A model generated the notes under the pieces. It was given only the letters and a program-made list of their open reading frames with translations, was not told the DNA's origin and ran no database searches. Positions 3,489 through 26,024 of a DNA stretch of 51,759 bases are shown here, piece by piece. Every line of letters starts with the position of its first letter. Position 1 is the stretch's first letter. Position numbers and translations under genes: made by a program. Source of the DNA: Escherichia phage vB_EcoD_Fulano1; the sequence record OL539459.1; one strand, 5' to 3'.

Positions 3489-4252
3489 TGAAAGTGAAGG
3501 GCGTCGTTAAACAATGGCGCTTTCCTGAAGCAAGCGAGCGGCAATTTAGCCGCTCAATTCAGGAGGCAATTAGAGAACTTGTAGTTCTCATGCGCAAGCG
3601 AACAAAAGCGATGAAGTTTGATGCAACAGATAATGAGATCAACAGCGCAGAAGATGAAATTAACAGCCTGGCAACTGACCTTATAGCTGGCATTGTTTCA
3701 ACTCTTCCCGCAATCGCGTTGACAATTTATAAATTCAATGCGAAGCAGTTTATCAATGTTGCCAAGTCAACTGGCGGAAAGGATAATACGGCGGTAATTG
3801 TTTTGATCGCGGTTGGCGCTAACGCTAACGAGGACTGGTATCAGACGCTATACGGTCAATGGCACGGGCTTACAGAATCATCGCTAAGGAAGTTATTCAC
3901 AAACATTGTTTCTGATTGGTCAACAAACATTCGAAATGCAAACTTTCGCGGAAGCAATGATAAACAGGTTAATGATCTTGCAGAAAAGAGATTTGCTGTT
4001 TATAGCTCTTGGGGTAAAACGAGATCAGAAAACATTATCGGCGCGTGGAATAGTCGCCTGATGCGCCAGCGCCTTTATGATGCTAAGGTGACTCATTATT
4101 TCTGGCATGGAATGTTAGATGATAGAGAGCGATTGCAGCATGTGTTATGGGAAGGTAAAAGAATAGCGCTTGATGCAATTCATGATTTCCCTGGTGAGCC
4201 GTGGGGTTGCCGTTGCTGGGCGATTCCAGATTGGAATAATAAAGGAGAGTAA
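3488..4252 (+). CDS. head morphogenesis / minor capsid protein (SPP1 gp7 / Mu F-like)
   Basis: 254 aa, start overlaps portal stop (TAATG); position after portal. Confidence 0.5.
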   Translation: MKVKGVVKQWRFPEASERQFSRSIQEAIRELVVLMRKRTKAMKFDATDNEINSAEDEINSLATDLIAGIVSTLPAIALTIYKFNAKQFINVAKSTGGKDNTAVIVLIAVGANANEDWYQTLYGQWHGLTESSLRKLFTNIVSDWSTNIRNANFRGSNDKQVNDLAEKRFAVYSSWGKTRSENIIGAWNSRLMRQRLYDAKVTHYFWHGMLDDRERLQHVLWEGKRIALDAIHDFPGEPWGCRCWAIPDWNNKGE

Positions 4253-4255
4253 TTA

Positions 4256-5368
4256 ATGAAGGCAAAACAAAGATTTGATAGCGTCCAGGTTAAGGCGCAT
4301 TTTGATGATAATGGCTTTTTAGTGGATCGCCCAATTGTGGCGCGAATTGGTTTGCAGGAGTACCGCACACCGTATGGAATCAGACGAGAGTTCCGACCAG
4401 CGTCAGAAGTGTTTAAGGCGGATTCGCTTGCTACGTTCGCAGGCAAGCCGATCACTATCGGTCACGTCACAGTGACGCCAGATAATGCGGATCAGGTTGT
4501 TGTTGGTTCATGCGCTGGTGCTGGTGTTCCAAATGGTGTTGGCGTTGAAGTTCCGTTAAGTATTTACTCAAAGCGAGCAATTGAGAGCGCAAAAAAGAAA
4601 GACACGGCGGAAATTTCAGTTGGTTACACATCAATTGATATTGATAAACCAGGTTGGGGTAATAATAAAACTGGCGATTACTTGTTTGAGGAAGACATTA
4701 AGGAAGACTGGAAGCCTGATTCCCCTGATTGGGTTAAATTTGACGCCATTCAGACGAATATCCGTGTTAATCACATTGCACTTGTCTTTCGTGGTCGTGC
4801 TGGCATTGCCAAATTAAATCTTGATAGTGAACAAGATTTTCCGTATAGTGACGAGGTTCTAAATGACAAAGGAGATGAGGAAATGACAGTAAAAATTAAA
4901 CTTGATGGCGCGGTAGAATTTGATGTTCCAAAGGCCGTTGCTGATCATATTGAGGCGTTAAAGGCAGATGCAAAAGCTGCAACAGAAAAAGCTGATGGCC
5001 TTGAGGCCGAGCGCGACGCCCTGAAAACTAAAGTCGATGGCATTCCGGCGCAGATTGCAGAAGCTGTTAAGAAGGCAAAGACTGACGCAGAAGAGCACGC
5101 CAAGCTAGTTGCAGATGCAACTGAAATTGGCATCAAGTGTGACGGCTTGGATGCTAAAGCGATCAAAGTTGCTTACGTCAAAGAAGTCACTGGCGCTGAT
5201 ATTTCAGAAAAAGCCGATGCATATATTGAAACAGCTTTTGACCTTGCGAAGCAGTCTGATAAAATGGCGGCGCAGCGTAAATCTGTTAAGGGCGATTCTT
5301 TCGGGTCTGGCAAGAATGAAAAAACCGACTCCCTTGATCCGACTGCGCGTTTGAAAAAACTTAAATAA
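4256..5368 (+). CDS. putative capsid scaffold-like protein
   Basis: 370 aa; globular N-terminal half followed by long Ala/Lys/Glu-rich coiled-coil-like C-terminal half; lies between head morphogenesis gene and capsid gene. Confidence 0.45.
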   Translation: MKAKQRFDSVQVKAHFDDNGFLVDRPIVARIGLQEYRTPYGIRREFRPASEVFKADSLATFAGKPITIGHVTVTPDNADQVVVGSCAGAGVPNGVGVEVPLSIYSKRAIESAKKKDTAEISVGYTSIDIDKPGWGNNKTGDYLFEEDIKEDWKPDSPDWVKFDAIQTNIRVNHIALVFRGRAGIAKLNLDSEQDFPYSDEVLNDKGDEEMTVKIKLDGAVEFDVPKAVADHIEALKADAKAATEKADGLEAERDALKTKVDGIPAQIAEAVKKAKTDAEEHAKLVADATEIGIKCDGLDAKAIKVAYVKEVTGADISEKADAYIETAFDLAKQSDKMAAQRKSVKGDSFGSGKNEKTDSLDPTARLKKLK

Positions 5369-23585: not shown

Positions 23586-24047
23586 ATGCATATTATTACT
23601 GGTGAGATCCGAAAAGAGCCGCGAGTAAAGCAAATGCCTAACGGCAGCACACTTTATGTGGTTGAACTTTCAGAGCGATACAAAGATAAAGATGGAAACT
23701 GGCAATATACAAACTACAGTTTCTTTTTTAATGCAAAAACTGACGGACTTAATGGTTTGTATGCTGAGGCGTTCCAGGTTGGCAAGGTTATTTCTGTTTC
23801 TTGTGACACCCTGCGCATTGAAACGCGAGAATACAACGGAAATCTGTATTCAAGTTTAATGCCAGGAGGATTTGCAAATCTTATCTTCAGTCAGCGCGGG
23901 GAAAGCCAGCAACAATATCAGCAGCGAACGCAAGGAGGATGGGGACAACCACAACAACAGAATCAACCGCAACAACCGCAACAACCGCAACAGCCAAGAC
24001 AAAGCAATCAGCCTCCTATGGACTTTGACGACGACATCCCCTTCTGA
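23586..24047 (+). CDS. ssb: single-stranded DNA-binding protein
   Basis: OB-fold-sized N-terminal domain, Gln/Pro-rich linker and C-terminal DFDDDIPF identical to the canonical SSB acidic tail. Confidence 0.9.
   Translation: MHIITGEIRKEPRVKQMPNGSTLYVVELSERYKDKDGNWQYTNYSFFFNAKTDGLNGLYAEAFQVGKVISVSCDTLRIETREYNGNLYSSLMPGGFANLIFSQRGESQQQYQQRTQGGWGQPQQQNQPQQPQQPQQPRQSNQPPMDFDDDIPF
23964..23990 (+). repeat. perfect 9-bp tandem repeat (CAACCGCAA)x3 inside ssb linker
   Basis: three exact copies encode QPQQPQQPQ. Confidence 0.8.
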
Positions 24048-24052
24048 TCAAC

Positions 24053-24076
24053 AAAGGGGCATTACGCCCCTTTTTC
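24053..24076. terminator. bidirectional intrinsic terminator
   Basis: stem GGGGC/GCCCC then T5; between ssb and convergent leftward gene. Confidence 0.7.
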
Positions 24077-24319
24077 ACTTTCAGCCATTCCAAGAACAGC
24101 AATCACCTTAACAGCAATTCTCTTTGCGAGTTCAGTTTGATGAGCGTTAAGTTTTCCAGTGGTCATTATTGACAGCATTCCGCTCATACTTCCAAGCCCG
24201 TTAAAATCTGACATTGCCGATTTCATAATTGATATTGGTGAGTGACCCTCACCAGCTATTGTGTGCGCTCTCTCTGAAAGGTCTTTAACTACCTGATCAA
24301 TTCCTTCACTTTTCGTCAT
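24062..24319 (-). CDS. hypothetical protein
   Basis: 85 aa ORF, last gene of leftward block. Confidence 0.35.
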   Translation of the reverse strand: MTKSEGIDQVVKDLSERAHTIAGEGHSPISIMKSAMSDFNGLGSMSGMLSIMTTGKLNAHQTELAKRIAVKVIAVLGMAESEKGA

Positions 24320-24797
24320 TTGCTTTTCCTTCAGGAGTTGATTGCTGTCCTGGCATTACAGGCCACGGGCTAATTGATTCCCTTTCTGCTACTGGCTTTT
24401 CAGGTTCAATTCCTAAAAACTTTCCTACAAAATCACCAACAAAATTTGAGCTATCGCTTACATAAACATGCATCCTGTCTAGATCTGCAACAGTAACGCT
24501 ATTTGGTGCGATCATGATCCTCTGTTGGTGAAAACCGATATACATCACATTAGCCGGACGCTCAAGAGTTCCCATATTTGGCGCAATTACGCCCATTATC
24601 CAACAATAATGAATGTTGCCATCAAGCGGCTCACATCCAGCGTTAAGCCAGTTTACTTTCTGGTGTGGGAATGCCATTGATGAATCAGTAGCATCACGCC
24701 GCAACGACCATTTAACGCCTCCAATCTCAATGATTTGTTTTGGCCTCATTCCGTTGAATTGAGTCACGCCAGCGCCATTTTGATTAATGTTTTGCAT
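24306..24797 (-). CDS. hypothetical protein
   Basis: 163 aa ORF, no motif recognised. Confidence 0.4.
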   Translation of the reverse strand: MQNINQNGAGVTQFNGMRPKQIIEIGGVKWSLRRDATDSSMAFPHQKVNWLNAGCEPLDGNIHYCWIMGVIAPNMGTLERPANVMYIGFHQQRIMIAPNSVTVADLDRMHVYVSDSSNFVGDFVGKFLGIEPEKPVAERESISPWPVMPGQQSTPEGKANDEK

Positions 24798-24811
24798 ATC
24801 GGTTCACCTTG

Positions 24812-25135
24812 TTACATTGATTTCATTTTACGCAATGCGCAGATACAAGCGGCAGCAAGATCGGTTAATTCTTTCTCAATGCCATGATGCGAGCCGTCTG
24901 CCTTTTCGGTCATTAGCTCTTTGTACTCCATTTCTACAATCGACATTAAGCCGCCAGACTTGTCAATGTGCGCGTCCCAGGTCTTAGGATAGTGCTTAGT
25001 TCTTTCAATAACACTTCCCATAACTGCATCATGTTCATGATCTCGATCATAATCTTTATCATGGCCATTTCCTCCAATTACTACTCGCGGCAAATGCACG
25101 CGCGGTAAATGATAGCCAGCGACAAGAATTTTCAT
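24812..25135 (-). CDS. hypothetical His-rich protein
   Basis: 107 aa, HLPRVHLPRV repeat and HDKDYDRDHEHD cluster; RBS AAGGGGA; terminator immediately upstream. Confidence 0.4.
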   Translation of the reverse strand: MKILVAGYHLPRVHLPRVVIGGNGHDKDYDRDHEHDAVMGSVIERTKHYPKTWDAHIDKSGGLMSIVEMEYKELMTEKADGSHHGIEKELTDLAAACICALRKMKSM

Positions 25136-25150
25136 GAGTATATCCCCTTA

Positions 25151-25176
25151 TAAAAAAGCGCCCCGAAAGGCGCTTG
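25151..25176 (-). terminator. intrinsic terminator (minus strand)
   Basis: minus strand AGCGCCTTTCGGGGCGCT then T6; between glycine-rich ORF and next gene. Confidence 0.6.
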
Positions 25177-25181
25177 GTTTA

Positions 25182-25559
25182 TTAGCAGCCGCAACAGCCA
25201 GTAGGCGGAGTCTGCGGAGTAGGCAACTTGAAGTTTACCAATTGCTCTACCTGGTTGATTTTGCAATTCAGTGCGGCTGTCTGGTTTGCCTGAGATAGAG
25301 CAAATCGCGCCTCCTGCAACTGAGCTTTCATATCGCAAATCAAAACAGCCTGAGAATCAGCAAACTGTTGGCGCATCAGATCTCGCGTTGCATTGCCTTG
25401 TCGCTCAATATTCAGGTTTGTCTCACAGCAACATCTCTCCGATGCAATTTGTGCCTGATAGGAACGCTCAAGAGCATTAACATCAGCAGCATTAATCGCA
25501 GCAACTGTCTGGTTAGTACCGCTAACAATCGCGGTATTCAGTCCGGCGAAACCTTGCAC
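25182..25559 (-). CDS. glycine-rich / Cys-cluster protein; true start unresolved (frame open to 25889)
   Basis: ORF track gives GTG 25559; same frame stays open and codon-periodic upstream to stop at 25890-25892, with RBS AAGAGGA (25869-25875) but no in-frame ATG/GTG/TTG. Confidence 0.4.
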   Translation of the reverse strand: MQGFAGLNTAIVSGTNQTVAAINAADVNALERSYQAQIASERCCCETNLNIERQGNATRDLMRQQFADSQAVLICDMKAQLQEARFALSQANQTAALNCKINQVEQLVNFKLPTPQTPPTGCCGC

Positions 25560-25992
25560 CGATGCAAGCAGGTTTTGCGTATTCTGGCTGGTAATGCCGT
25601 TAAAGGTTGATGCGGCGGAGCGCTCAACGGTAAGGTTTGTGGAGTTTTGGCCTTGCAGAGTTTGCAGCCCCAGGTTGTTTACGCCTGTCTGGATGTTATT
25701 AATACCATCAAGAACAGCGTTAGCACCGACAGCAACAGCAGCACCATCACCACCATAACCACCACGACCATTAAAGCCGTTACCAAACCATGACCCAATC
25801 AGGCCGCCAACAGCACCGCCAAGACCAGCCGCGCCAGCTTCGCCACCAAAACCACCACCAAGTAAATTCCTCTTTGACGTTAAAAAAAATTAAAAAAGTT
25901 TGCAACATTTATGTTACGACAAAGAGTATGCGCCAAATTACCAGGAATAGATATGAAACATTTGTAAGCGATATGTCAGCAAATGGCATAAA

Positions 25993-26024
25993 GACGAAAA
26001 AAGGCGCAGCCGTAGCCGCGCCTT
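25993..26024 (-). terminator. intrinsic terminator after side tail fibre gene
   Basis: minus strand stem AAGGCGC/GCGCCTT then T6. Confidence 0.6.

What the first reader, a model, noticed from the sequence alone, without database searches (positions are those of the whole stretch)
25182..25892. Glycine-rich ORF with a C-terminal Cys cluster and no canonical start codon, isolated between two terminators
On the minus strand the frame is open from the stop at 25890-25892 to 25182 (about 236 codons). The first ~45 codons are glycine-rich with GGT/GGC periodicity (GGGFGGEAGAAGLGGAVGGLIGSWFGNGFNGRGGYGGDG), followed by a Gln/Asn/Thr-rich region and ERCCCE ... TGCCGC at the C-terminus. A strong RBS (AAGAGGA, 25869-25875) sits at the right distance, but the frame has no ATG/GTG/TTG until GTG 25559. 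The +1 frame has TTG 7 nt after the RBS but stops after 20 hydrophobic codons. Options: non-canonical initiation, frameshift at the 5' end, sequencing indel, or recent pseudogenisation. Composition suggests a secreted or fibre-associated glycine-zipper protein or a bacteriocin-like peptide, but no homology could be assessed.
Basis: partly seen in the sequence, partly recalled or inferred. Interest (0 to 1): 0.7.

Follow-up and report, generated by a model that had tools for sequence, protein, structure and literature searches.

The report
Conserved phage gene missing its start
The start-less glycine-rich reading frame is a conserved phage accessory gene of unknown function that, in this genome only, has lost 26 bases holding its ATG and first nine codons, so it is most likely a very recent dead copy, not a new way of starting translation.

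Summary
On the minus strand, 25892-25182 is an open 235-codon frame with a Shine-Dalgarno site and no ATG/GTG/TTG before GTG 25559, and it lies between two terminator-like hairpins.

The cause is ordinary. All 17 distinct close relatives I inspected (Hanrivervirus and related Tempevirinae, Drexlerviridae) read TTTACT-ATG-TCR-GAT-ATG-ACT-TTA-CTC-CCT-ACT-GGT... after the same ribosome-binding site. The window lacks exactly 26 nt (ATGTCAGATATGACTTTACTCCCTAC), which removes the ATG and the conserved N-terminus MSDMTLLPT. The remaining 223 codons compared differ from phage aaroes by 9 synonymous and 0 non-synonymous changes. Family dN/dS is 0.01-0.12, so the loss is very recent.

The intact gene is phrog_9288, about 233 aa and uncharacterised. 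It has a glycine-zipper N-terminus, a long helical region, a nearly invariant CCC motif and a Pro-rich C-terminus ending in Cys. It is the first gene of a mobile four-gene cassette of unknown function. Other phages carry independent disruptions: a nonsense codon in JakobBernoulli, in-frame stops in T5-like phages, a deletion fusion, a frameshift in Salmonella phage 36 that may be a sequencing error, and a rearrangement in 2019SD1 that may be a misassembly.

I found no support for non-canonical initiation, recoding or a bacteriocin. Interest is low. The uncharacterised cassette is the only moderately interesting residue.

The parts
25182..25892 (-). Open frame described by the finding: upstream in-frame TAA, 235 sense codons, TAA stop. 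Codons from 25859 onward are the remnant of the phrog_9288 gene.
25860..25861 (-). Deletion junction. Relatives carry 26 nt (ATGTCAGATATGACTTTACTCCCTAC: start codon plus codons for SDMTLLPT) between these two bases.
   Evidence: The junction sequence is absent from IMG/VR and JGI metagenome contigs. The intact junction is present in 4 IMG/VR contigs.
25868..25874 (-). Shine-Dalgarno AAGAGGA, retained and identical in all relatives.
25799..25861 (-). Accidental neo-ORF in the +1 frame. TTG begins six bases after the SD and is followed by 19 more hydrophobic codons (MVVVLVAKLARLVLAVLLAA) and TGA. This is where ribosomes loaded at the SD would most likely go.
   Evidence: the spacing is read directly; that ribosomes use it is inference
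25557..25559 (-). First canonical start codon (GTG) in the glycine-rich frame, giving a 125-aa C-terminal fragment. No SD-like sequence lies upstream.
25425..25433 (-). CCC motif (TGT TGC TGT), nearly invariant across the whole family.
25185..25199 (-). C-terminal GCCGC. It is conserved in the enterobacterial subfamily and absent from many distant members.
26001..26024 (-). Terminator-like hairpin after the lateral tail fibre gene.
25156..25175 (-). Terminator-like hairpin directly after the glycine-rich ORF. A terminator is annotated at the equivalent place in phage Sasha.
25882..25897 (-). T6-AA-T8 tract between a possible -35 (TTGCAA) and a weak -10 (TAACGT). The run lengths vary among relatives.
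   Evidence: the promoter assignment is inference, and the consensus scan found no promoter
24812..25135 (-). Cassette gene B (107 aa, phrog_9157), a weak match to all-alpha NTP pyrophosphatases.
24306..24797 (-). Cassette gene C (163 aa, phrog_8329), the most conserved member. It has a confident beta-rich model with no known structural relative.
24062..24319 (-). Cassette gene D (85 aa, phrog_7239).

Best explanation
The ORF is the orthologue of aaroes_76 / pSf-1 gp92 (phrog_9288, VOG6476). In the lineage or stock from which this genome was sequenced, a 26-bp deletion just downstream of the ribosome-binding site removed the ATG and the first nine codons (MSDMTLLPT).

The transcription unit survives: the conserved upstream region, the SD and the terminator. 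Ribosomes recruited by the SD now meet TTG/GTG codons in the +1 frame. They would make a 20-residue hydrophobic peptide and stop. The glycine-rich frame has no usable start, so the 233-aa protein is not made, or only in traces. The allele is a null, or at best a severe hypomorph.

The event is very recent, because the remaining codons carry no non-synonymous change.

The intact protein is inferred, not shown, to be a membrane-associated accessory protein of infected cells. It has a short conserved N-terminal peptide, an uncharged glycine-zipper segment (a true hydrophobic transmembrane helix occupies this place in distant homologues), a long helical domain with an invariant CCC motif, and a Pro-rich Cys-tipped tail. 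It works with three co-inherited genes (B, C, D) in a mobile cassette that can evidently be lost.
For: **Shown**
- The 26-nt gap lies exactly at the start codon in alignments with aaroes, JakobBernoulli and pSf-1.
- All 17 distinct close relatives keep the ATG-TCR-GAT-ATG... sequence.
- All 24 full-length megablast hits listed span 918-933 nt against 901 nt in the window.
- The N-terminus M-S/T-D-M-x-L-L/I-P is nearly invariant in 81 homologues and in the wider family. The profile aligns from residue 1 in most of 122 representative clusters.
- Purifying selection is strong: dN/dS is 0.01-0.12 among copies. Window versus aaroes shows 9 synonymous and 0 non-synonymous differences over 223 codons.
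- The +1 frame TTG ORF stops after 20 codons.
- There is no second copy in the window.
- The gene can be lost, as other copies show. JakobBernoulli has Q78 changed to a stop. Salmonella phage 36 has a frameshift. Shigella phage 2019SD1 has a rearrangement. T5-like polluks and L038 have in-frame stops. P0121 is a G::C deletion fusion found on 11 contigs.

**Architecture**
- AF2 predicts residues 1-53 as disordered and residues 54-218 as helix.
- Residues 17-40 are uncharged, with a mean Kyte-Doolittle hydropathy of 1.19.
- Distant homologues carry GGMMVLLFLILILEYG at that position.

**Cassette synteny:**
Against: - No reads are available, so an assembly or consensus error cannot be excluded.
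- The complete lack of decay is also what continued expression would produce, although 9 differences is a small sample.
- The deletion has no clean microhomology. TACT...TACT slippage would give 27 nt, not 26.
- The frameshift in phage 36 may be a sequencing error, because gene C is also frameshifted in that record.
- Membrane association and an intracellular role are inferences from composition and from the weak NTP-pyrophosphatase signal in neighbour B (E = 0.007).
- No heptad periodicity supports a coiled coil.
Confidence: 0.72

Rival explanations
1. Assembly or sequencing artefact. The phage really carries the intact gene, and the 26 nt were lost in consensus building or are deleted in only part of the sequenced population.
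For: The junction is unique among all public sequences searched. The rest of the gene is perfectly preserved. The region is flanked by short repeats (TTTACT twice, TACT three times) and GGT repeats, as read.
Against: Typical sequencing errors are 1-2 nt homopolymer indels, not a 26-nt loss in non-homopolymer sequence. The neighbouring homopolymers (T6, T8) and genes B, C and D are all in order. Comparable natural lesions exist in relatives.
Confidence: 0.15
2. The protein is still made by an unconventional route. Candidates are initiation at a non-canonical codon in frame; TTG initiation in the +1 frame followed by a -1 shift in the GGT-GGT-GGT-TTT-GG run; or transcriptional or replicative slippage in the T8 run (T8 to T7), which would put the upstream ATG 25908 in frame and give MLQTFLIFLTSKRNLL-GGGFGG...
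For: The SD is retained. There are no non-synonymous changes or stops in 225 codons. By direct reading, loss of one T in the T8 run joins ATG 25908 to the glycine-rich frame. In aaroes and several relatives that ATG happens to be in frame with the gene.
Against: The in-frame codons near the SD (AGG AAT TTA CTT) are not known initiators. No X XXY YYZ heptamer lies in the 63-nt overlap (read). ATG 25908 has no SD. It lies upstream of the likely promoter, and in pSf-1 and JakobBernoulli it is out of frame because the T-runs differ, so it is not a conserved start. Any product would lack the nearly invariant MSDMTLLP peptide. The arrangement occurs in this one genome, so selection cannot have shaped it.
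Confidence: 0.07
3. A shortened protein of 125 aa starting at GTG 25559 is the functional product in this phage. It would be the C-terminal half with the CCC motif and the Cys tail.
For: It is the only canonical ORF left in that frame. The BASEL annotators called the equivalent fragment a CDS in JakobBernoulli, where a nonsense codon splits the gene.
Against: No SD-like sequence precedes GTG 25559. In intact relatives this codon is an internal valine. The fragment lacks the N-terminal peptide and the glycine-zipper segment, both conserved family-wide.
Confidence: 0.04

Closest known systems
Escherichia phage aaroes gene aaroes_76 (QHR65791.1), Shigella phage pSf-1 gp92 (AGI61475.1) and their Hanrivervirus orthologues (phrog_9288, VOG6476)
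   Same: Same locus, same RBS, same flanking terminators and neighbours. The 223 codons compared are 100% (aaroes) and about 99% (pSf-1) identical at the protein level.
   Different: Those genes start with ATG and encode MSDMTLLPT before the glycine run. The window lacks these 26 nt. No member of the family has a known function.
Escherichia phage JakobBernoulli (Bas07) bas07_0035/0034, annotated 'hypothetical protein' plus 'putative sugar-binding protein'
   Same: It is another copy of the same gene that is broken in a sequenced isolate, and the downstream half is annotated from the same internal GTG.
   Different: The lesion there is a nonsense codon (Q78 to stop) and the start is intact. I found no evidence for the 'sugar-binding' label (no Pfam, NCBIfam or PDB match).
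Glycine-zipper membrane segments (Pfam Gly-zipper_Omp PF13488, Gly-zipper_YMGG PF13441)
   Same: An uncharged G/A/L/V/I stretch with GxxxG spacing (AGAAGLGGAVGGLIGSWFG). A distant homologue gives sub-threshold hits to both models.
   Different: The window protein and its close relatives give no hit even at E < 1. Those Pfam families are short outer-membrane or lipoprotein-associated domains, not 230-aa helical proteins.
Class II microcins / double-glycine-leader bacteriocins (e.g. colicin V)
   Same: Gly-rich composition, a GG dipeptide about 11 residues from the N-terminus, and C-terminal cysteines. The resemblance is recalled from general knowledge and is a lead only.
   Different: The protein is about 233 aa rather than under 10 kDa. 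The leader-like peptide is too short. There is a 165-residue helical domain. No bacteriocin family is matched, and no transporter or immunity gene is adjacent.
Rz-type i-spanins
   Same: An N-terminal membrane-type segment is followed by a long helical region containing conserved cysteines, with a Pro-rich end. This is a similarity of architecture only, from general knowledge.
   Different: It is not in a lysis cassette and has no o-spanin partner. No spanin PHROG is matched at E < 0.01. The gene can be lost or disrupted in otherwise complete phage genomes.

Membership tests
phrog_9288 / VOG6476 (uncharacterised phage protein family) | Significant match to the family profile | tested here: met
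   E = 9.8e-117 over profile positions 10-234. 214 homologous clusters.
phrog_9288 / VOG6476 | Full-length product beginning with the conserved M-S/T-D-M-x-L-L/I-P peptide at an ATG behind the SD | tested here: not met
   The window lacks profile positions 1-9 and any in-frame start. The motif is nearly invariant in the family.
phrog_9288 / VOG6476 | CCC-x-T-N-x-N-I-E-R-Q core and LICD motif | tested here: met
   ERCCCETNLNIERQ and LICD are present. The columns are invariant or nearly invariant.
phrog_9288 / VOG6476 | Synteny with phrog_9157, phrog_8329 and phrog_7239 immediately downstream | tested here: met
Programmed -1 ribosomal frameshift site | Slippery heptamer X XXY YYZ in the overlap of the two frames, conserved among relatives | tested here: not met
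   No such heptamer lies in 25861-25799 (read). The two-frame arrangement exists only in this genome.
Class II microcin / double-glycine bacteriocin | Small precursor, 15-24 aa GG leader, bacteriocin family match, and a linked export or immunity gene | tested here: not met
   Relatives are 233 aa. No Pfam bacteriocin hit. The neighbours are PHROGs of unknown function, not transporters.
Pfam glycine-zipper domains (PF13488, PF13441) | Profile match above the gathering score | tested here: not met
   No hit at E < 1 for the window protein or aaroes. A distant homologue scores 14-15 bits against cut-offs of 25-29.
Tape measure protein (phrog_167) | Significant full-length match and a position within the tail operon | tested here: not met
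   E = 0.006-0.0095 to about 130 of 1555 profile positions, in a compositionally biased region.
Virion structural / fibre protein | Detected in purified virions | not testable with these tools
   I found no proteomic data in the literature searches. The cassette lies next to tail-fibre genes in some phages but next to terminase or head genes in others.

The most novel reading that the evidence does not exclude
The G-B-C-D unit is an uncharacterised, horizontally mobile phage accessory system. G is a Gly-zipper/CCC membrane protein, B a putative MazG/HisE-like NTP pyrophosphatase, C a protein with a new beta-rich fold, and D a small helical protein. Its first gene would be costly under some propagation conditions and therefore repeatedly knocked out. 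The window's 26-bp start deletion would be one fresh instance of that counter-selection. A still more exotic reading is that the start-less ORF is rescued by recoding or by slippage in the T8 run. That is not excluded, but I put it at about 5% or less.
Probability: 0.25. Interest if true: 0.5.

Novelty: new member of a known kind. Interest (0 to 1): 0.2.

Why it matters
For annotation, this ORF should be recorded as a disrupted copy (pseudogene) of the phrog_9288 family. It should not be called a gene with an exotic start, and the internal GTG should not be annotated as a 125-aa protein.

For biology, the case adds a natural null allele to a conserved but uncharacterised four-gene cassette. 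The cassette is shared by Drexlerviridae, Queuovirinae, Sashavirus-like, Yersinia and metagenomic siphoviruses. Together with the other broken copies, it shows that the first gene can be lost, and it provides a ready isogenic contrast (this phage versus aaroes-like relatives) for finding out what the cassette does.

It opens no long-standing question and does not challenge current views of translation initiation.

Tried and rejected
- **Family and domain searches.** Pfam, NCBIfam, PADLOC, PDB sequence and profile searches, and Rfam on the ORF and its surroundings gave nothing above threshold.
- **Structure of G.** AF2 gives one long helix at pLDDT 61. Foldseek against PDB gave no hits, and a single helix is uninformative for fold search.
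- **Coiled-coil test.** Fourier analysis of hydrophobicity found no heptad signal beyond shuffles, so I do not call it a coiled coil.
- **Truncated product.** Exact look-up of the 125-aa product found no record.
- **Deletion junction.** A search in IMG/VR and JGI metagenomes found none.
- **Literature.** Searches for virion proteomics of related phages were unproductive.
- **Promoter scan.** No sigma-70 consensus site was found. The TTGCAA-N17-TAACGT assignment is by eye only.
- **G-B fusion.** An apparent G-B fusion in L020-L025 came from my own ORF-extension script. A stop follows ...PPAS, so I rejected it.
- **Other readings considered and rejected.** Bacteriocin, tape measure fragment and spanin (see the membership tests).

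Full report
**1.

Reading the minus strand and translating 25892-25182 gives an upstream TAA, 235 sense codons and a TAA. The sequence begins FFLTSKRNLLGGGFGGEAGAAGLGGAVGGLIGSWFGNGFNGRGGYGGDG. It contains ERCCCE and ends TGCCGC.

The mechanical ORF list shows that the first ATG/GTG/TTG in this frame is GTG 25559, giving 125 aa. The TTG that begins six bases after the AAGAGGA motif is in the +1 frame and stops after 20 hydrophobic codons.

Terminator-like hairpins lie at 26024-26001 and 25175-25156 on the minus strand. The frame is not a chance ORF. It matches phrog_9288 at E = 1e-116.

**2. What happened to the start codon.**

The window is a Hanrivervirus-like phage (Drexlerviridae, Tempevirinae). 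The region matches 68 phage records. The 24 full-length matches listed span 918-933 nt against 901 nt in the window.

I aligned the 5' end with aaroes, JakobBernoulli and pSf-1. The sequence is identical through the SD and TTTACT. The relatives then have a 26-nt block, ATGTCAGATATGACTTTACTCCCTAC, that the window lacks. Identity resumes at TGGTGGTGGTTTTGG.

The block is the ATG plus the codons for SDMTLLPT. In relatives the gene is a 231-234-aa CDS (aaroes_76, pSf1_0092 and others). All 17 distinct close relatives inspected carry the block.

The deletion junction sequence occurs nowhere in IMG/VR or the JGI metagenome contigs. The intact junction is found in four IMG/VR contigs.

A TACT...TACT slippage would delete 27 nt, so the observed 26 nt needs either an extra T or a non-homologous event. 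Because 26 is not a multiple of three, the upstream ATG at 25908 is also out of frame. That ATG happens to be in frame with the gene in aaroes.

**3. Is the gene real and constrained?**

Yes. There are 214 homologous clusters of about 230 aa. A profile search of 1.84 billion representatives finds 122 clusters, mostly 200-290 aa and aligned from residue 1.

The N-terminal peptide M-S/T-D-M-x-L-L/I-P, the glycine-rich segment, QGFxGLN, CCCxT...I..EG.ATR and LCDAKAKI...ASQxAQT are conserved across the family.

Among Hanrivervirus copies dN/dS is 0.01-0.12. The window differs from aaroes by 9 synonymous and 0 non-synonymous substitutions over 223 codons. The gene has been under purifying selection essentially up to the present, so the deletion is very recent. 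It could have arisen during isolation or propagation, or it could be an artefact that I cannot exclude without reads.

**4. Consequence in this genome (inference).**

The SD now faces TTG-GTG-GTG in the +1 frame. The in-frame codons AGG AAT TTA CTT are not initiators. The overlap of the two frames has no X XXY YYZ site. GTG 25559 has no SD. The start-less layout is unique to this genome, so selection cannot have shaped it as a recoding device.

The simplest reading is a null allele plus an accidental 20-aa hydrophobic micropeptide. One rescue route cannot be formally excluded. Loss of one T in the T8 run (25889-25882) would join ATG 25908 to the frame. However, that ATG has no SD and lies upstream of the only plausible promoter. 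It is out of frame in pSf-1 and JakobBernoulli, where the T-runs differ.

**5. The gene can be lost.**

Independent lesions occur elsewhere:
- Q78 to stop in JakobBernoulli, which explains its split annotation.
- A 1-nt frameshift near codon 30 in Salmonella phage 36. Gene C is also frameshifted in that record, so this may be a sequencing error.
- A rearrangement in Shigella phage 2019SD1 that fuses the tail-fibre C-terminus to TLLPTGGG.... This may be a misassembly in that record.
- In-frame stops in T5-like Epseptimavirus copies.
- A G::C deletion fusion at an IER microhomology, found on 11 contigs (P0121), and frameshifted C-termini in P0122 and P0124.

**6. What the intact protein looks like.**

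AF2 with 81 homologues gives a disordered Gly-rich segment at residues 1-53, one helix at 54-218 and a Pro-rich tail, with mean pLDDT 61. There are no PDB fold or sequence matches.

Residues 17-40 are uncharged, with a mean Kyte-Doolittle hydropathy of 1.19. I found no heptad periodicity, so I do not call it a coiled coil.

Distant homologues (phrog_9288 at E = 1e-8 to 4e-11, and phrog_16490) have a true hydrophobic helix, GGMMVLLFLILILEYG, where the enterobacterial proteins have the glycine zipper. They repeat the CCC motif.

I therefore infer a membrane-inserting or membrane-associated protein. This is inference only.

**7. Context.**

The gene is the first of a four-gene set: G, then B (107 aa, phrog_9157), C (163 aa, phrog_8329) and D (85 aa, phrog_7239).

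The set is syntenic in Tempevirinae, Seuratvirus/Nonagvirus, Sashavirus, Yersinia phages and a low-GC metagenomic phage. It lies in different genomic neighbourhoods in each.

B weakly resembles all-alpha NTP pyrophosphatases: 2p06 at E = 0.007 and HisE at E = 0.17, with the ExxE...ExxD motif aligned. One GenBank record already labels it 'putative pyrophosphatase'. C has a confident model with no structural relative.

The cassette is a coherent, mobile unit of unknown function. This is the only part of the locus with some discovery value.

**8. Comparison with known kinds.**

It is a defective member of a catalogued but uncharacterised PHROG. Three other readings fail:
- It is not a bacteriocin, on size, domain content and neighbours.
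- It is not a tape-measure fragment. The only match is weak and compositionally biased.
- It is not a spanin. It is not in a lysis cassette and has no matching profile.

**9. Verdict.**

The feature is real and its cause is ordinary: a recent start-removing deletion in a conserved accessory gene. Interest is low (0.2). The residual novelty lies in the unknown function of the G-B-C-D cassette and its repeated decay.

Noticed in passing
window 24062-25892 (minus strand); L049, L051, L052, L056, L040: A four-gene cassette is conserved in order across several unrelated siphovirus groups but is inserted in different genomic neighbourhoods. Its members are phrog_9288, 9157, 8329 and 7239, all of unknown function.
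   Followed up: partly
window 24812-25135 (minus strand): Gene B gives weak profile matches to all-alpha NTP pyrophosphatases (AF_0060 2p06, HisE 1yvw), with ExxE...ExxD aligned. Several homologues carry poly-His tracts such as HHHHHYHHGHH.
   Followed up: partly
[not shown]
   Followed up: partly
window 25799-25861 (minus strand): The deletion creates a new 20-codon ORF (MVVVLVAKLARLVLAVLLAA) whose TTG begins six bases after the strong SD. This is a transmembrane-like micropeptide that relatives do not encode behind an SD.
   Followed up: no
L002 (JakobBernoulli, MZ501079.1) 1642-2346: The gene carries a nonsense codon (Q78 to stop). This is why the record annotates two CDSs, one of them labelled 'putative sugar-binding protein'. 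I found no support for that label.
   Followed up: yes
L036 (Shigella phage 2019SD1, MT360681.1) 3900-5000: The locus is rearranged. The tail-fibre C-terminus is fused in frame to ...TLLPTGGGFGG..., the gene is then frameshifted, B is missing, and C and D are on the other strand.
   Followed up: partly
L008 (Salmonella phage 36, NC_029071.1): Both G and C are frameshifted in this record, which suggests sequencing errors in it and not necessarily biology.
   Followed up: no
one search hits H13, H14, H19, H20 (MG0656xx): Nineteen 'Campylobacter phage' GenBank records match this locus. Those listed are 92-93% identical, and the one inspected is flagged UNVERIFIED. They match an E. coli/Shigella Hanrivervirus locus, so the host labels are probably wrong.
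   Followed up: no
window 25882-25897 (minus strand) and the same place in L001-L003: The two T-runs upstream of the SD differ in length among relatives (T6/T8, T7/T8, T8/T7). This changes the frame of an upstream ATG and the spacer of a possible TTGCAA...TAACGT promoter.
   Followed up: partly
window 23586-24047 (plus strand): The SSB-like ORF, convergent with the cassette, has a Q/P-rich repeat (QPQQPQQPQQPRQ) near its C-terminus. The equivalent place in aaroes is annotated as a repeat_region.
   Followed up: no
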